From positions 1,770,001 to 1,802,000 of the forward strand of contig NC_014833.1 in assembly GCF_000179635.2 (NCBI RefSeq): DNA of 32,000 nt. The letters run 5' to 3'. A program made the position numbers and the translations under genes. Positions 2,690-15,354 of the stretch are shown in pieces. Origin of the DNA: Ruminococcus albus 7 = DSM 20455 (GTDB lineage Bacteria > Bacillota > Clostridia > Oscillospirales > Ruminococcaceae). The notes beneath the pieces are model-generated. The model was not told where the DNA came from. It searched no databases and saw only the letters and a program-made list of their open reading frames with translations. How positions within the stretch are numbered: position 1 is the stretch's first letter; each line of letters begins with the position of its first letter.

Positions 2690-3301
2690 ATGAGATCATT
2701 TTCAAAATCCGCTGCCTGCATTTGTGCTTTGGTAATGGCAGCATCGACCATGACTGCTGTCAGCGTAAGTGCAGAGCAGAACAAAGGTTCAGCTGCAGCT
2801 GTTACACAGGAGAACAGCAAGTCAGAAAATACTGACGTTAAGTTCGGAAAGGTAACTGCGGTGAATGGCAGCGAAATAACTGTTGCCCTCGGAGATTTTA
2901 CCAAAACGGAAAAATCTTCGGAAACTTCGGATGTGAAGGAAAAGAAAAAGCAGTCCGATGAAACATCTTCCACAGATGAACAGCAGACCGAGAAGATCAA
3001 AACAAAAGTCAAAGGTCATAAAGGCAAAGGCGGACATCGCGACAGTTTTACTGAAGACGGCACTACCGTTACGGTGACTGTCACTGATAACATTACCGTC
3101 AGCAGAAAGGGTGCAGAGGCTTCAGTATCAGACATCAGTGAGGGCGATATAATAAAGCTTGGATACAATGAAAATGCTGAACTTGAAATCGTAAAACTGA
3201 TGAAAGGCCATAAACACAGCGGATCAGGTACGGAAGGCAGTTCAAAAACCCGTCCCGCAAAGAAAGCAGGCAAGTCTTCGGAACAAAGTACCGAAGCATA
3301 A
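2690..3301 (+). CDS. secreted low-complexity (Lys/Ser/Glu/Thr-rich) hypothetical protein
   Basis: ORF-track entry 2627..3301 trimmed to ATG 2690. This gives MRSFSKSAACICALVMAASTMTAVSVSAEQ, a signal peptide with a VSA-E cleavage-like site. Two short beta-rich segments (KFGKVTAVNGSEITVALGDF and TVTVTDNITVSRKG...DIIKLGYNENAELEIVKL) are separated by charged low-complexity sequence. Confidence 0.75.
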   Translation: MRSFSKSAACICALVMAASTMTAVSVSAEQNKGSAAAVTQENSKSENTDVKFGKVTAVNGSEITVALGDFTKTEKSSETSDVKEKKKQSDETSSTDEQQTEKIKTKVKGHKGKGGHRDSFTEDGTTVTVTVTDNITVSRKGAEASVSDISEGDIIKLGYNENAELEIVKLMKGHKHSGSGTEGSSKTRPAKKAGKSSEQSTEA

Positions 3302-10865: not shown

Positions 10866-11306
10866 AGTTGTATCGAACCCGGATCAGTGTTTTGTTTAAA
10901 GTTATATTCCGTACTGATACGGGCTTTTGGCATTTACGGTATATAACTTATACTAATATTAAGAATGAATAAAAGACCTAATGCATTACTCAACAGAACT
11001 GCATTTGGTCAAAAATAATCAGAACTGTTCACCTCCCGGGAATTATGCGATAACATCAAATGATCTTTTTTACGTGTTTAAATATATCGCATTTATACTT
11101 TAAGTGTTTTTTCAATAATAGAATTGTAACACGTATTCCGGAAAATGTCAATATTTAATTATGAAAAACAACTACAATTTTAACATATAAACAAAATCTA
11201 ATTATATGTATTGTACAATTCGATAAATATTTCTGTTTTGCTGCTTTTCGAGCATCAAATACCGATGACACTGCAGAAACTGTGGCTTGTGAAAAAATGA
11301 TCTATC

Positions 11307-11335
11307 TTGATAATGATACGATCGTATGCTATAAT
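11307..11335 (+). promoter_or_regulatory. sigma-70 type promoter upstream of the first ECF sigma gene
   Basis: TTGATA at 11307-11312, 17-bp spacer, TATAAT at 11330-11335, TG at 11327-11328. Confidence 0.6.
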
Positions 11336-11480
11336 AAATACTGATGAAGCATTTTGCAGATACCATTCTTATTTATTTGAGATGGTCGCTGAAAATTTTT
11401 TTATAAAAATGCAATCAAACTGTTATGACATTCGTTTTATAAGTGAAAGCTTTCAAAATTATCCGCGGGGAGGTGAAAAG

Positions 11481-11963
11481 ATGACGATGAGCATAGAAGA
11501 AGTGGTTGATAATTATGCCGACCATATCTATCGTGCTGCTTACGCATATCTTTGTGATGCGCATGAAGCCGAAGACGTAGTCAGCGATGTGCTGATGAAG
11601 TATTTCTCCATGTGCGAAACACTTGATATCGAAACAGCGGAACATCTTAAAGCGTGGCTGCTTCGTACGGCTATAAACCGATGCAAGGACATTCGCAAGT
11701 CATTCCGCTGGAAGCACACTTCCACTCTGGAAGATGTACATAAAACAGAATTCGGGTGGACTGAAGCCGAACTTGATGTGAAACGGGCGGTAGATAAGCT
11801 TCCCGAAAAATACAGAGCCATCGTTTATCTTTACTATTATGAGGAGTACAAAACAGAGGAGATAGCACGTATACTCAGCCTGCCGAAAGGAACTGTGGTC
11901 TCGCGGCTGAAAAGGGCGCGGGACAGGCTGAAAGATGTGCTTTCGGATTACAGAGAGGAGTGA
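11481..11963 (+). CDS. RNA polymerase sigma factor, ECF (sigma-70 group 4) type
   Basis: ORF-track entry 11307..11963 trimmed to ATG 11481 (GGAGGTG lies 7 nt upstream). 160 aa. Region 2 (ADHIYRAAYAYLCDAHEAEDVVSDVLMKY...WLLRTAINRCKD) and region 4 HTH (YEEYKTEEIARILSLPKGTVVSRLKRARDRL). Confidence 0.88.
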   Translation: MTMSIEEVVDNYADHIYRAAYAYLCDAHEAEDVVSDVLMKYFSMCETLDIETAEHLKAWLLRTAINRCKDIRKSFRWKHTSTLEDVHKTEFGWTEAELDVKRAVDKLPEKYRAIVYLYYYEEYKTEEIARILSLPKGTVVSRLKRARDRLKDVLSDYREE

Positions 11964-11967
11964 GCTT

Positions 11968-13152
11968 ATGAGCGCGATAAAAGATATGTACGGCAAAGCA
12001 AAGCTTTCCGATGAGAAAAAAGCCGAACTGAAAAATGAGCTCGGTCAGCGATTTCCTCGATATGCGGACAGCATGGAAGATAAAACGGAGGTCATTGGAA
12101 TGAATGATAATAAAGTACATGAAAGCAACGGACATATAAAGGTACACAGCAAGCTGAGAACAGGTGCAGTAATTGCAGCGGCAGCTGTTGTGGCTGTGAT
12201 AGGCGGAATGAAACTGGCGAGAGATCAGTACACCGAAAAAGCGTTGATCCAGCCCGCAGGTCAGGGAGAGGATAATTATACAACAGACAGAGAAGATTCT
12301 GTAAAAGAAGATTATTCACCTCAAGAGGGTTATATCGAAATAGCAGATAAGACAATTCTCAGAAATATAAAAATTATATATAACTCAGCGCTTGAAGCAT
12401 ATGCGGATCTTATCGATAGCACAGGTGATGAGTTTGTTCTTGGTGAAGAAAAGATCATAACCGCTGAAATGGTCAGACAGTCAAGCAAAAACAATATAGT
12501 TCATGAGGATGGCAAATGTTCTGCAATGGAATTTGCAGCAGCACTCAACAAGTCTTTAGCTGATTTAGATGGATTTAATGCAGAACAGTATGATTTTGCT
12601 GTTGACTTCATGTTCAATGAGAGTGGTACTAAAACAGTAAGTGTAAACTATGTATACATATTTCTTGATGATGAACACAAATACTTTAACACTTATCCGT
12701 CGTATGGATCGAATGGCGGTGTAAGGGAAAATGGTATCACCAAAAGATTAAGTTATGATAGTTCTTGCGCAAAGAAGGTGTATGAAGAATTAGAGGCAGC
12801 TATCATAAAATATAACGAAAGCGGTAAGCCCTTAAATATAGATAGTATTCAAGCAGATACTTCAAAAGAATACCTATATTTGATCTGTGATTACGAGCGT
12901 GAGGGCTTAGAAGTAAATGATAAAATGAAATTTGCGCGTGAACTTATGAAGGATGGCAGCATAACTAGACAGTTTATTGAAGACGGCAATAATTTCGATG
13001 CGGATTTCAAACGTGACGAAAACGGTAATATCATTGGAGTCGAAAGGGTATATGTTGAGATATTCGATGATGAAAGTGCTGAATATGATGAAAACGGCAA
13101 CCGAAAGTGTGAACGCTTTGATTATCCCGATGAGAATAAAACTGAAAAATGA
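11968..13152 (+). CDS. single-pass membrane protein, putative anti-sigma factor with an extracellular domain of about 300 aa
   Basis: ORF-track entry 11935..13152 trimmed to ATG 11968 (GAGGAG lies 7 nt upstream), 4 nt after the sigma stop. One TM segment (TGAVIAAAAVVAVIGGM). No recognisable zinc anti-sigma motif. The call rests on position and topology. Confidence 0.7.
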   Translation: MSAIKDMYGKAKLSDEKKAELKNELGQRFPRYADSMEDKTEVIGMNDNKVHESNGHIKVHSKLRTGAVIAAAAVVAVIGGMKLARDQYTEKALIQPAGQGEDNYTTDREDSVKEDYSPQEGYIEIADKTILRNIKIIYNSALEAYADLIDSTGDEFVLGEEKIITAEMVRQSSKNNIVHEDGKCSAMEFAAALNKSLADLDGFNAEQYDFAVDFMFNESGTKTVSVNYVYIFLDDEHKYFNTYPSYGSNGGVRENGITKRLSYDSSCAKKVYEELEAAIIKYNESGKPLNIDSIQADTSKEYLYLICDYEREGLEVNDKMKFARELMKDGSITRQFIEDGNNFDADFKRDENGNIIGVERVYVEIFDDESAEYDENGNRKCERFDYPDENKTEK

Positions 13153-13607
13153 CCGTGACCATTCCCGATGTTGCAGGCAAAAACAAAACCGAAGCTATAT
13201 CAGAGTTAGAATCGCTGGGATTCAAAATAGACGTGCATCCGATAGAATATGAAGACGTTCCTGAGGATACTGTATTAATAACTAAACCTGAAGCAGGCAA
13301 TGAAATTGAGTTTGGAAGTCAAGTGAAAATATATTTCAGTGGCACGGCTTCTAAAGAACAGCTTGTTTCAATTCCTGATGTAGTTGGCAAAGATAAAAAT
13401 GATGCTGTATCAGAGATACAATCTCAGGGATTTAATACTACTATATATTGGATGTACTCCGATACAGTTCCAGAGGGGACTGTTATATTCACCGAACCTA
13501 GCTCAGCCAGATCTGTCAGACCTAATGAACGAGTTATGTTGGTTGTCAGCAAAGGGCACTTTGATCCGGCTGAAAAGAAATCAACAAAAGATACATTAGA
13601 AAAATAA
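13149..13607 (+). CDS. protein made of two PASTA domains, without any export signal
   Basis: 152 aa with two PASTA repeats: IPDVAGKNKTEAISELESLGFKIDV...VPEDTVLITKPEAGNEIEFGSQVKIYFSG and IPDVVGKDKNDAVSEIQSQGFNTT...VPEGTVIFTEPSS...RVMLVVSKG. The ATG overlaps the upstream TGA (ATGA) at an A5 run. Confidence 0.75.
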   Translation: MTVTIPDVAGKNKTEAISELESLGFKIDVHPIEYEDVPEDTVLITKPEAGNEIEFGSQVKIYFSGTASKEQLVSIPDVVGKDKNDAVSEIQSQGFNTTIYWMYSDTVPEGTVIFTEPSSARSVRPNERVMLVVSKGHFDPAEKKSTKDTLEK

Positions 13608-13627
13608 GCTATCGACTTAATAATAAT

Positions 13628-13670
13628 ATCAGGAGCCGCGATCCAGCATCGCGGCTCCTGATCGTTTTTT
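13628..13670. terminator. strong bidirectional terminator
   Basis: Perfect 15-bp stem ATCAGGAGCCGCGAT / ATCGCGGCTCCTGAT, 5-nt loop, CGTTTTTT on the plus strand and a T-rich tract on the minus strand. It lies between convergent operons. Confidence 0.9.
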
Positions 13671-13786: not shown

Positions 13787-14800
13787 TTATTCCAGCGTAA
13801 AAGTGATCTCCCAATCTCCGGAAGTATAATCCTGTGCAGTTACAAATTCACCTTGCAGAGTGCATTTGCACAGCTCATCATAAGAAACAGGTATGATCTG
13901 TTCCGTATAATTGTCCTTGTTAGTATCATCAGAATAATCAAATCCAAATTCTGTGGTTTCACCTATTTGGACACCATTGGTGTTGCAAAGCTTGATAAAG
14001 CCGTGACTGTCGGTATGCGAATTGTCTTCATATCGTGTCAGGATATGAAGCGCACCGTCAATGTATCCGATATTCATTACAGAGACATTTGGTGCGGGAG
14101 TGCAAAGCGTTTGTTCGGAAGGAATCAAAAAACGATACTCATGGGGATCGGGAAGCTCGTCATAGGAAAATCCGCCACTGATTTCATTTCGTGTCATGGT
14201 CTGTGGTTCATAAGGGATACTGCTCATATCAATAGCTTCAAGTGCCGTCTTCGTTTTAATTTTGCCCGTCATCATCTCATGAACGGAGAAAGTGACCTTA
14301 CCATTTGGCATAGCGCTGCCGTCCATCGTTTCCAAATGCACCACAAAATAGGCAGTATGGGAATCAGCATCATATTCCGAGAAGCTGCAATGACCTGTCA
14401 TATCATGGGGAACATTGATGTGATAGCTGTCATACAGATCCCAATCACCGTCAGGACAAGTACCTGTTGTATCGTGCATTGCAAGATATACGCTCGCTTC
14501 ACTTCCATTACGTTCAGCGGAGATGACCGTCATTTCAATTCCATTATCTTCACACGTTTTCTGTACCGGTTTGAATGTCTGTGCAACAGAAGGAGCAATA
14601 TGGTATAGGATATTGTACGCAGGATCGACACCAAATGCTGTCAGTGTCGGGAGCGGACAAGTTATCAATGCTGCAGCAGCTGCAACTGAAACTATCCTTT
14701 TTGTCCACTTTCGATGTGTGATCGTTCTTTTCGGTATATCAACATCAAGATAACGGTCTTCTATCATTCCGACCGCATTCATAAATGTATCAGCATTCAT
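13787..14800 (-). CDS. single-pass membrane protein, putative anti-sigma factor (second module)
   Basis: 337 aa. The ATG overlaps the sigma stop (ATGA at 14797-14800). Cytoplasmic N-terminus MNADTFMNAVGMIEDRYLD, TM segment IVSVAAAAALITCPLPTL, and a beta-rich extracellular domain of about 270 aa. Confidence 0.72.
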   Translation of the reverse strand: MNADTFMNAVGMIEDRYLDVDIPKRTITHRKWTKRIVSVAAAAALITCPLPTLTAFGVDPAYNILYHIAPSVAQTFKPVQKTCEDNGIEMTVISAERNGSEASVYLAMHDTTGTCPDGDWDLYDSYHINVPHDMTGHCSFSEYDADSHTAYFVVHLETMDGSAMPNGKVTFSVHEMMTGKIKTKTALEAIDMSSIPYEPQTMTRNEISGGFSYDELPDPHEYRFLIPSEQTLCTPAPNVSVMNIGYIDGALHILTRYEDNSHTDSHGFIKLCNTNGVQIGETTEFGFDYSDDTNKDNYTEQIIPVSYDELCKCTLQGEFVTAQDYTSGDWEITFTLE

Positions 14801-15354
14801 AGATAATTCTCCTTTTTTAGTTTGGCATAGAGTTTTTTTCGTGTCCTGAACAGCATGGATTTTACCTTGCTTTCAGAAAAACCGTGATTCTCAGCAATCT
14901 CGGAAATTGACTGCATATACCAATAACGACGGACAAATAAATTACGTTCTGTATCAGATATGTTTTCAAGAAAATGCTCAATTTCTTCCGCAAGGGCTTG
15001 CTCGGATACCTGTTGTTCAACATTCTGATCAGATCTCAGCCACTCAGCAACTTCATCATATATGACTCTGACTTCATCTGCACCGCGTTTTATAGCTTTG
15101 TCAGAACGAACACGTTTCAAGCTGATGTTTCGTGTCAGTTTGCCAAGAAATGTTTGCAGACATTCGGGTATGTGTGGTGGAATACTGTTCCATGCTGCAA
15201 GCCAGGTCTCGTTAATTGCTTCATCCGCATCTTCGGGGATATGCAGGATATGTTTTGCGATCGTCCGACAATATTTTGTGTATTTCCGTTCGGTATGTAC
15301 AACGGCATTTTCATTTCGCTGTAAATACATTTCAATGATCTGCTGATCTTCCAC
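14797..15354 (-). CDS. RNA polymerase sigma factor, sigma-70 family (ECF-like)
   Basis: 185 aa. GTG start with GAGGAG 7 nt upstream. Region 2 (EDADEAINETWLAAWNSIP...FLGKLTRNISLKR) and region 4 (RRYWYMQSISEIAENHGFSESKVKSMLFRTRKKL). Confidence 0.85.
   Translation of the reverse strand: MEDQQIIEMYLQRNENAVVHTERKYTKYCRTIAKHILHIPEDADEAINETWLAAWNSIPPHIPECLQTFLGKLTRNISLKRVRSDKAIKRGADEVRVIYDEVAEWLRSDQNVEQQVSEQALAEEIEHFLENISDTERNLFVRRYWYMQSISEIAENHGFSESKVKSMLFRTRKKLYAKLKKENYL

What the first reader, a model, noticed from the sequence alone, without database searches (positions are those of the whole stretch)
11481..13607. ECF sigma / anti-sigma-like membrane protein followed by a leaderless double-PASTA ORF joined at an A5 run: possible -1 frameshift fusion giving a PASTA-sensing anti-sigma factor
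- **PASTA ORF:** ORF 13149-13607 is two textbook PASTA repeats that begin at residue 4. There is no room for a signal peptide, lipobox or TM helix.
- **Topology problem:** characterised PASTA domains (PBP2x-type PBPs, PknB/PrkC/StkP-type kinases) are extracytoplasmic and bind muropeptide or lipid II. A cytosolic stand-alone PASTA protein therefore does not make topological sense.
- **Upstream gene:** gene 11968-13152 is a single-pass membrane protein. Its C-terminal domain of about 300 aa should be outside the cell, and it occupies the anti-sigma position right after an ECF-type sigma gene.
- **Junction:** its stop TGA (13150-13152) overlaps the PASTA ATG (13149-13151) within G-AAAAA-TGA (A-run 13145-13149). 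The PASTA frame is closed by TGA at 13143-13145, so the A-run is the only place where the frames can be joined.
- **Mechanism:** a -1 slip of tRNA-Lys from AAA 13147-13149 to AAA 13146-13148, with the stop codon waiting in the A site, would continue ATG ACC GTG... This would append the complete PASTA pair to the extracellular C-terminus (...DENKTEK-MTVTIPDVAGK...).
- **Alternatives:** a genuine 1-nt indel, a homopolymer sequencing error, or plain ATGA translational coupling.
- **Significance:** any fused version would couple PASTA-type cell-wall sensing to an ECF sigma factor. I do not know that architecture as described.
Basis: partly seen in the sequence, partly recalled or inferred. Interest (0 to 1): 0.62.

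Follow-up and report, generated by a model that had tools for sequence, protein, structure and literature searches.

The report
Frameshift-split PASTA anti-sigma sensor gene
The two reading frames are halves of one gene, a membrane sensor with cell-wall-type PASTA domains encoded next to a stress sigma factor. Loss of a single base has cut it in two in this Ruminococcus strain and in one wild relative, and nothing suggests the cell is programmed to read across the break.

Summary

In nearly all relatives found, including four other species genomes of the genus, the last two ORFs are one gene of 450-547 aa with 1-2 PASTA repeats. One distant homologue has none. The closest in-frame relatives (96-98% nt identity) read ACT GAC AAA ATG ACC where the window reads ACT GA- AAA ATG ACC. 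One C was lost, and that loss created the A5 run.

The deletion is genuine. The same junction is in a second genome assembly, in at least 9 single-run assemblies, and in a metagenome contig from a different strain (99.25% identity).

Programmed frameshifting is not supported. The slippery run is not conserved, there is no stimulatory structure or SD, and A_AAA tetramers alone shift at about background level.

Best reading: a naturally circulating frameshift allele that makes a PASTA-less anti-sigma-like protein plus a remnant ORF.

The intact ECF sigma plus PASTA-bearing membrane partner was absent from the papers I searched. It recurs at two other loci in this clade, and earlier notes of this scan report it on other DNA.

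The parts
11307..11335 (+). Sigma-70-like promoter (TTGATA-17-TATAAT with TG extension) upstream of the operon. It is conserved only in the window and its closest relative.
   Evidence: Single-run contigs of the locus begin at 11291-11397.
11410..11439 (+). Conserved ECF-type promoter motif, TGCAAT-N17-CGTTTTA. It is probably the autoregulated promoter of the operon.
   Evidence: Invariant block in all 8 orthologous upstream regions. It is the only match in the own genome at up to 3 mismatches. Promoter function is inferred.
11481..11963 (+). ECF-type sigma factor gene (160 aa).
   Evidence: Pfam Sigma70_r2/r4_2, TIGR02937, and PDB matches to SigW, SigL and SigH. It is 91-100% identical and always directly upstream in orthologous loci.
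11968..13152 (+). 5' part (394 codons) of the split gene. It has a conserved N-terminal cytoplasmic module (residues 1-64), a TM helix (residues 65-84, nt 12160-12219), and an orphan ectodomain of about 300 aa. It sits in the anti-sigma position, 4 nt after the sigma stop.
   Evidence: No known anti-sigma Pfam domain was found.
13143..13152 (+). Junction TGAAAAATGA. One C is missing after GA (13144-13145) compared with GAC AAA ATG in relatives. The 0-frame stop is at 13150-13152, the -1-frame stop at 13143-13145, and ATG at 13149-13151.
   Evidence: the only coding indel in 7.5 kb. The same junction is present in L003-L012 and L032.
13149..13607 (+). 3' part of the split gene: two PASTA repeats (152 codons), now a leaderless remnant ORF without SD, signal peptide or TM segment.
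   Evidence: It is 99% identical to the C-terminus of the fused orthologue P0001.
13628..13662 (.). Bidirectional intrinsic terminator (15-bp stem) shared with the convergent second sigma operon.
   Evidence: Single-run contigs end at 13611-13667. A compensatory stem change is seen in L032.

Best explanation
**What the gene is**
- ORFs 11968-13152 and 13149-13607 are the two halves of one ancestral gene.
- That gene encodes an ECF-sigma-associated, single-pass (N-in/C-out) membrane sensor: a short conserved cytoplasmic N-terminal module, a TM helix, a lineage-specific ectodomain of about 300 aa, and a C-terminal pair of PASTA repeats.

**What happened to it**
- In the lineage of this strain a single C was deleted from ...ACT GAC AAA ATG ACC..., giving ...ACT GAA AAA TGA.
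- The deletion created the A5 run, a premature stop and the ATGA overlap all at once.
- The allele is real and heritable. It is also present in a second, slightly diverged strain from a metagenome.

**Inferred consequences**
- The operon is still transcribed from the promoter to the terminator.
- The main product is a 394-aa PASTA-less anti-sigma-like protein. It probably still folds and still holds the sigma factor, because natural PASTA-less and one-PASTA family members exist, but it has lost whatever input the PASTA pair provides.
- The 152-codon PASTA frame is a recent remnant. At most it is translated weakly by termination-reinitiation into a cytosolic, probably functionless protein.
- Unprogrammed -1 slippage at A_AAA_UGA could give only trace full-length protein, and only codons 13144-13149 are productive for such a slip.
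For: **Shown by tool results**
- 14 of 16 homologues are single ORFs of 426-547 aa with PF03793. The alignment runs straight through the junction.
- Four other species genomes of the genus carry one open frame without stops. Only the own genome shows TGA stops inside the match. The membrane part and the PASTA part are in the same frame wherever both are matched.
- Junction DNA in relatives reads GAC AAA ATG (L001, L002, L026, L027), AAT GAA ATG (L020, L021) and TAC GAA ATG (L022), against GAAAAATG in the window.
- Against L001 (97.8% identity over 7.5 kb), the missing C is the only indel inside a coding region.
- The split junction is identical in an independent draft genome assembly (GCA_000621285.1) and in 9 listed single-run Logan assemblies. 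24 contigs were read in all.
- L032, an ENA metagenome contig with 18 mismatches over 2400 nt to the window, carries the same junction.
- Eight distinct fused sequences in the same 90% cluster read NKTDKMTV in all that were read.
- The family naturally includes 2-PASTA, 1-PASTA and 0-PASTA members. The 0-PASTA gene, P0016/L024, has its own terminator.
- There is no SD before the PASTA ATG and no TM segment or signal peptide in the PASTA ORF.

**Inferred**
- Transcription of the whole operon is inferred from contig boundaries. The short single-run contigs run from about 11291-11397 to 13611-13667, or on to about 15550, which matches promoter-to-terminator or promoter-to-promoter spans.
Against: - A minority A6 population in DNA or RNA therefore cannot be excluded, since Logan contigs drop rare variants.
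- The allele occurs in two strains and the PASTA frame is still intact in both. This would also fit a tolerated or even useful two-ORF state, although the divergence (2 differences in 1.56 kb) is far too small to test for decay.
- The anti-sigma function of the 5' product is inferred from position, topology and conservation only. No known anti-sigma domain was detected, and the AlphaFold N-terminus has low confidence.
Confidence: 0.8

Rival explanations
1. Programmed -1 ribosomal frameshifting, or transcriptional slippage, at the A5 run regularly restores the full-length PASTA-bearing protein. On this reading the two-frame layout is a regulated way of making two products.
For: - tRNA-Lys can re-pair perfectly from AAA 13147-13149 to AAA 13146-13148 with a UGA stop waiting in the A site, a 'shifty stop' context (sequence; concept in PMC5009743).
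- The product would match the orthologue junction.
- The allele is present in two strains.
Against: - The slippery run is absent from every in-frame relative and was created by the deletion itself.
- There is no downstream structure: MFE -17.1 kcal/mol against -20.3 for shuffles, z = +1.0.
- There is no SD-like stimulator upstream.
- In E. coli, Z_ZZN tetramers without a stimulator shift at 0.147% against a 0.112% background. A_AA.A is the weakest of the responsive tetramers even with a pseudoknot (PMC4066793).
- Bacterial transcriptional slippage is described for runs of about 9 A or T (PMC5009743), and the run here is 5.
- The two split alleles are near-identical, so they are shared by descent rather than independently conserved.
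Confidence: 0.04
2. Sequencing or assembly error at a homopolymer: the real genome is in frame.
For: The defect is a 1-nt length difference next to an A-run, which is the classic error type of older platforms.
Against: - The same junction appears in a separate draft assembly, in 9 listed de novo single-run assemblies from at least three run series, and in a metagenome contig of a different strain.
- The missing base is a C, not an A of a longer run.
Confidence: 0.02
3. A functional two-gene state: the truncated sensor and a separately translated cytosolic double-PASTA protein (ATGA coupling) both have roles, and the split is maintained by selection.
For: - An ATGA stop/start overlap allows termination-reinitiation (established knowledge).
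- The allele is found in two strains, and the PASTA frame has no further lesions.
Against: - There is no SD, and no export signal for a domain type that is extracytoplasmic in all characterised cases.
- No other homologue found has this layout.
- The only two changes separating the window from L032 in this gene are non-synonymous hits at conserved hydrophobic positions: V to D at 13121 and V to F at 13335. That fits relaxed constraint rather than maintained constraint, although n = 2.
Confidence: 0.06
4. A phase-variable contingency locus: the A-run expands and contracts reversibly, switching the PASTA module on and off in the population.
For: - Both in-frame and out-of-frame alleles circulate among close relatives.
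- Another relative (P0002) has a separate 1-nt A-run deletion near the 3' end.
Against: - The in-frame alleles read GACAAAATG (an A4 run interrupted by C), not A6. The difference is therefore a C deletion, not a run-length change.
- A5 is short for slipped-strand switching (established knowledge).
- No A6 allele (TEKMTV) was found in any database protein.
Confidence: 0.03

Closest known systems
Classical ECF sigma / membrane anti-sigma pairs released by regulated proteolysis (B. subtilis SigW-RsiW, SigV-RsiV; E. coli RpoE-RseA)
   Same: - A two-domain ECF sigma gene is followed immediately by a co-transcribed single-pass membrane protein with a short cytoplasmic N-terminus and a large extracytoplasmic C-terminus.
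- A conserved ECF-type promoter motif lies upstream, as in autoregulated ECF operons.
   Different: - No recognisable anti-sigma domain (zf-HC2, RskA, DUF4179) was detected.
- The ectodomain is an orphan with only 8 representative clusters among 1.84 billion proteins.
- In relatives the C-terminus carries PASTA repeats.
- Sigma binding and proteolytic release are untested.
PASTA Ser/Thr kinases (M. tuberculosis PknB, B. subtilis and S. aureus PrkC, S. pneumoniae StkP) and PBP2x-type PBPs
   Same: The C-terminal repeats are bona fide PASTA domains by sequence and by fold: PF03793, PDB 2kui, 3m9g and 5e10, Foldseek E = 6e-10. By topology they are extracytoplasmic in the intact orthologues.
   Different: - There is no kinase or transpeptidase domain. 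The cytoplasmic output would be sigma-factor sequestration.
- The repeats are only 31-32% identical to the PASTAs of the genome's own 740-aa open frame that carries the best other PASTA match, probably its PASTA kinase.
- The ligand is unknown.
M. tuberculosis PknB -> RseA -> SigE pathway
   Same: It links PASTA-type envelope sensing (lipid II) to release of an ECF sigma factor (PMC10027907).
   Different: There the link is indirect: kinase phosphorylation of a separate anti-sigma factor, followed by ClpC1P2 degradation. Here, in intact orthologues, the PASTA repeats and the putative anti-sigma module are on one polypeptide.
SigI/RsgI systems of cellulolytic clostridia (modular anti-sigma factors with swappable extracellular sensor domains)
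   Same: Both are a family of membrane partners that keep a conserved N-terminal module and vary the extracellular modules. Here the variation is 1-5 ectodomain repeats and 0, 1 or 2 PASTA repeats. Both occur in fibre-degrading Clostridia.
   Different: - The sigma factor here is ECF-type, not SigI-type.
- No RsgI N-terminal domain was detected.
- The sensor modules are PASTA or orphan domains, not CBM, PA14 or GH domains.
'Compensatory' low-level frameshifting on indel alleles (e.g. G-run indels in herpesvirus thymidine kinase) and non-programmed suppression of 1-bp deletions in E. coli
   Same: A 1-nt deletion next to a homopolymer could be leaky. Aggregate non-programmed -1 suppression of 1-10% has been measured in E. 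coli test genes (PMC10861913; PMC5009743).
   Different: Only two codons (13144-13149) lie between the -1-frame stop and the 0-frame stop. The many-site aggregate therefore does not apply, and single A_AAA tetramers are near background (PMC4066793).

Membership tests
Programmed -1 ribosomal frameshift site (dnaX / IS3 / IS911 type) | A slippery motif conserved among orthologues that share the two-frame layout. | tested here: not met
   Orthologues are in frame with GAC AAA ATG, AAT GAA ATG or TAC GAA ATG. The A5 run exists only in the deletion allele.
Programmed -1 ribosomal frameshift site (dnaX / IS3 / IS911 type) | A stimulatory element: a downstream hairpin or pseudoknot, and/or an upstream SD-like sequence. 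| tested here: not met
   Folding 13125-13260 gives z = +1.02, with 172 of 200 shuffles folding at least as well. No SD-like sequence lies upstream.
Programmed -1 ribosomal frameshift site (dnaX / IS3 / IS911 type) | Measured trans-frame product. | not testable with these tools
   This needs proteomics or a reporter assay.
Frameshift (indel) allele of a normally single gene | Close relatives carry one uninterrupted ORF, and a single indel explains the difference. | tested here: met
Frameshift (indel) allele of a normally single gene | The lesion is reproducible in independent sequence data, so it is not an assembly artefact. | tested here: met
   The same junction is in GCA_000621285.1, in 9 listed single-run assemblies, and in the diverged metagenome contig L032. 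Individual reads were not seen.
ECF sigma factor (TIGR02937 sigma70-ECF) | Sigma-2 and sigma-4 regions only, with a score above the family cut-off. | tested here: met
   78.5 bits against a cut-off of 42.9. Sigma70_r2 and r4_2 are both above the Pfam cut-offs, in a protein of 160 aa.
Membrane anti-sigma factor of an ECF sigma | Gene directly downstream of the sigma gene and co-oriented with it, with conserved synteny. | tested here: met
   The gap is 4 nt. The sigma gene lies directly upstream in all 8 orthologous loci examined.
Membrane anti-sigma factor of an ECF sigma | A recognisable anti-sigma domain (class I ASD/zf-HC2, RskA, DUF4179, class II CnrY-like). | tested here: not met
   - No Pfam or NCBIfam hit at E <= 0.1, and no PDB match to the N-terminus.
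- Searches find the N-terminal module only in this family and, more distantly, in P0138-P0142.
- It resembles the N-terminus and TM region of the second PASTA partner in the genome only weakly (E = 0.002).
Membrane anti-sigma factor of an ECF sigma | Physical binding and inhibition of the cognate sigma factor. | not testable with these tools
   No complex prediction or experiment was available.
PASTA domain (PF03793) | Sequence match above the gathering score, and the PASTA fold. | tested here: met
   100.2 bits against a cut-off of 23.2, with two repeats. The profile matches PknB and PrkC PASTAs. The model of the 99%-identical orthologue has pLDDT 75-90 in the PASTA part and matches 5e10, 3py9 and 3ouv.
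PASTA domain (PF03793) | Binding of muropeptide, lipid II or beta-lactam. | not testable with these tools
   This needs a binding assay.

The most novel reading that the evidence does not exclude
In the intact orthologues this protein is a true anti-sigma factor whose own PASTA repeats sense peptidoglycan precursors or fragments. Cell-wall status would then be wired straight to an ECF sigma factor without a kinase. The split allele would be a naturally circulating 'sensor-blind' variant, possibly with trace rescue by slippage at A_AAA_UGA, which makes it a ready-made natural mutant for testing what the PASTA input does.
Probability: 0.3. Interest if true: 0.55.

Novelty: new variant of a known kind. 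Interest (0 to 1): 0.35.

Why it matters
- **For annotation.** The two ORFs should be annotated as one frameshifted gene, not as a cytosolic stand-alone PASTA protein plus a hypothetical membrane protein. This removes the apparent topology paradox.
- **For biology.** The interest lies in the intact form. An ECF sigma factor whose membrane partner carries PASTA repeats would be a kinase-independent route from cell-wall sensing to transcription.
- **Prior description.** I found no paper describing this arrangement. It nevertheless recurs at three kinds of locus in the Ruminococcus albus clade, and according to earlier notes of this scan also in other lineages.
- **A natural comparison.** The sequenced strain and its in-frame relatives differ at this gene by a natural loss of the PASTA module, which gives a clean comparison.

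Tried and rejected
- **Read pile-up or RNA reads at 13140-13155.** I did not use read laying, because it takes ids only from that tool.
- **Plasmid collection search.** No match.
- **Fold of the ectodomain.** The AlphaFold model from a 15-sequence alignment has mean pLDDT 58.5. Foldseek against the PDB returned only PASTA hits and nothing credible for residues 125-392.
- **Distant homologues of the ectodomain.** Only 8 representative clusters were found, with no informative domain.
- **Other partners of the N-terminal module.** The search found only the same family.
- **Regulon search with the conserved promoter motif.** Only the operon's own promoter matched at up to 3 mismatches.
- **L025.** This contig is 99.1% identical to the window but breaks at 12700 into an unrelated lipase gene and does not reach the junction.
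- **Testing decay of the PASTA ORF.** There are only 1-3 substitutions against the nearest relatives, so the test has no power.
- **Literature.** No paper combined a PASTA domain with an anti-sigma factor on one protein. The ECF re-classification paper has no 'PASTA' in its main text, and its supplements are not held.
Full report
**1. The observation**

The stated features are all present.
- Gene 11481-11963 encodes a 160-aa ECF-type sigma factor: Sigma70_r2 and r4_2, and TIGR02937 at 78.5 bits against a cut-off of 42.9. Its PDB matches are SigW, SigL and SigH.
- Four bases later, 11968-13152 encodes a 394-aa protein with one hydrophobic segment (residues 65-84, Kyte-Doolittle mean 2.05) and no known domain.
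- ORF 13149-13607 encodes 152 aa that are two PASTA repeats from residue 3 (PF03793, 100.2 bits). It has no hydrophobic segment and no Shine-Dalgarno.
- The junction is ACT GAA AAA TGA with ATG at 13149. The PASTA frame is closed by TGA at 13143-13145.

**2. Relatives have one gene**

- A search with the 394-aa protein returned 16 homologues, those that carry names being from Ruminococcus albus or Ruminococcus sp. Fourteen are single proteins of 426-547 aa that carry PF03793.
- The closest, P0001 (546 aa = 394 + 152), reads ...YPDENKTDKMTVTIPDVAGK... straight through the junction. The alignment is continuous there.
- Among the 38 other species genomes of the genus, four have a full-length match in one open frame without stops. 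Only the window's own genome shows TGA stops inside the match.
- In every locus where tblastn matched both parts, the membrane part and the PASTA part are in the same frame. The sigma gene (91-100% identical) lies directly upstream.

**3. The lesion**

- Codon-level comparison shows GAC AAA ATG in the closest relatives (L001, L002, and also L026 and L027). More distant species read AAT GAA ATG or TAC GAA ATG. The window reads GA-AAAATG.
- One C is therefore missing, and its loss created the A5 run, the stop and the ATGA overlap together.
- Over 7.5 kb aligned with L001 (97.8% identity), this is the only indel inside a coding region.

**4. It is real and not confined to one culture**

- The exact 152-aa ORF is on record in 27 blocks of the assembly collection. 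Of the 24 contigs read, the 10 shown all carry the 394 + 152 layout.
- These include an independent draft genome (GCA_000621285.1) and de novo assemblies of single runs (SRR1168528, SRR4055029-45, SRR6829570).
- They are 100% identical to the window apart from contig-end artefacts, and they carry the same junction.
- Cluster look-up revealed a second 152-aa sequence, P0149. Its contig L032 is from an ENA metagenome. It differs from the window at 18 of 2400 positions with no gaps and has the same ACTGAAAAATGACC junction. The deletion allele therefore exists in at least two strains, one of them uncultured.
- The own genome has 4,482,087 bp in 5 contigs, and the window is C1:1770001-1802000.
Minority variants therefore remain untested.

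**5. Why not programmed recoding**

- The slippery run is not conserved. It is a by-product of the mutation.
- The 136 nt around and downstream of the site fold no better than shuffled sequence (z = +1.0).
- There is no SD-like element upstream.
- In E. coli, Z_ZZN tetramers without a stimulator shift at 0.147% against a 0.112% background. A_AA.A is the weakest responsive tetramer even with a strong pseudoknot (PMC4066793).
- Non-programmed suppression of 1-bp deletions can reach 1-10%, but that figure is summed over many sites (PMC10861913). Here only codons 13144-13149 lie between the two stops.
- Bacterial transcriptional slippage is described for runs of about 9 A or T (PMC5009743).
- I therefore expect at most trace full-length protein. 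This is an inference.

**6. What the gene is**

- **N-terminal module.** It is conserved (MSAIKDMYGK.KLS.EKKAELK...TEVIGMND...), as is the TM helix. The same module heads more distant proteins whose ectodomains are 2-5 copies of an orphan repeat ending in YxYPDExH, with or without a terminal PASTA.
- **Ectodomain.** It has only 8 representative clusters among 1.84 billion proteins and no credible structural neighbour.
- **PASTA number.** It varies across the family:
  - two PASTA repeats (532-547 aa);
  - one (426-472 aa, and a divergent one in L019);
  - none (P0016, 402 aa, with its own terminator).
- **Selection.** In in-frame orthologues dN/dS is 0.26-0.60 for the PASTA part, 0.16-0.45 for the ectodomain and 0.25-0.31 for the N-terminus. 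The PASTA module is constrained, but it is the most plastic part.
- **Promoter.** An ECF-type motif, TGCAAT-N17-CGTTTTA (11410-11439), is invariant upstream of the sigma gene in all eight loci. It is the only match in the genome at up to 3 mismatches. This suggests a small, autoregulated regulon.
- **Topology.** N-in/C-out is inferred from the single TM segment, the 64-residue charged N-terminus without a signal peptide, and the C-terminal PASTA repeats of the orthologues.
- **Anti-sigma function.** It is inferred from gene position, topology and conserved synteny. No known anti-sigma domain was detected, so membership of a known anti-sigma class is not established.

**7. What probably happens in this strain**

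This section is inference.
- The short single-run contigs begin at 11291-11397. They end at 13611-13667, or at about 15550 on the far side of the convergent operon. That matches the promoter (11307-11335) and the terminator (13628-13662) found.
- They therefore look like transcript assemblies, and the operon is probably expressed as one sigma / membrane protein / PASTA mRNA with A5 as the consensus.
- The main product should be a 394-aa PASTA-less protein. Because natural PASTA-less members exist, it is probably stable and still able to act on the sigma factor, but without the PASTA input.
- The only two differences between the window and L032 within this gene are non-synonymous and hit conserved hydrophobic positions: V to D at 13121 in ERFVYPDE, and V to F at 13335 in PASTA-1. 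This is compatible with relaxed constraint near the lesion, but n = 2.

**8. Comparison and novelty**

- A frameshift allele is ordinary. The intact architecture is less so.
- Literature searches found PASTA domains linked to ECF signalling only indirectly, through PknB phosphorylating RseA in M. tuberculosis (PMC10027907). No paper had PASTA on an anti-sigma factor.
- The pairing is nevertheless recurrent.
  - The same genome has an intact ECF sigma gene whose end overlaps a long open frame containing a 533-aa single-pass protein with three PASTA repeats and an NPCBM-like domain (L016).
  - Three other R. albus-clade genomes have a third locus type, a 174-aa sigma gene overlapping a 507-608-aa PASTA protein.
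- Earlier notes of this scan report the L016 locus (e1-3018409) and PASTA-bearing ECF partners in other lineages. Those are unchecked AI notes. I verified only the L016 locus.
- I rate the finding as a new variant of a known kind, ECF sigma with a membrane partner.

Noticed in passing
window 12250-13000: The ectodomain-coding part of the split gene is a local divergence hotspot against the closest relative L001. It has 17-40 mismatches per 250 nt, against 0-9 elsewhere in 7.5 kb. This suggests recombination or diversifying selection on the sensor domain.
   Followed up: partly
window 13787-15354 (minus strand): A second ECF sigma gene (185 aa, 14797-15354) overlaps a 337-aa single-pass protein (13787-14800) that has only a weak DUF4179 hit (E = 0.03). 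This pair converges on the same bidirectional terminator as the PASTA operon, and the arrangement is conserved in L001 and L026.
   Followed up: partly
L016 826-2914 (own genome, G000:C1 about 3174076-3176164, minus strand): An intact second ECF sigma gene (160 aa) is followed by a 533-aa single-pass protein with three PASTA repeats and an NPCBM-like domain. Matching regions, about half of its length including the PASTA repeats, are 55-69% identical to Ruminococcus Stk1/PrkC-type kinases, which suggests domain capture from the kinase.
   Followed up: partly
L028, L029, L030 (GCA_000526775.1, GCA_900112155.1, GCA_017619875.1): A third locus type occurs in related genomes. A 174-aa sigma gene overlaps by 4 nt a 507-608-aa PASTA protein, in conserved synteny (AP endonuclease, FMN dehydrogenase, sigma, PASTA protein, hydrolase).
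   Followed up: no
L026/L027 about 3090-3126 (P0002), equivalent to window 13575-13607: A relative with the in-frame junction has a different 1-nt deletion in the AAGAAATCA stretch near the 3' end. Its C-terminus reads ...AEKNQQKIH* instead of ...AEKKSTKDTLEK*. A-rich stretches of this gene therefore collect single-base indels.
   Followed up: partly
window 13628-13662 against L032 1585-1619: The shared terminator hairpin differs between the two split-allele strains by a compensatory stem change (A-T to G-C at 13631/13659) and a largely rewritten loop (ATCCAGCAT against ATGCTGGAA). Divergence is 0.13% across the sensor gene but 1.9% downstream of it, which hints at a recombination boundary near the terminator.
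   Followed up: partly
L025 3598-4386: A metagenome scaffold is 99.1% identical to the window up to position 12700. It then continues into an unrelated class-3 lipase gene on the other strand. This is either a rearrangement in that strain or a chimeric scaffold.
   Followed up: no
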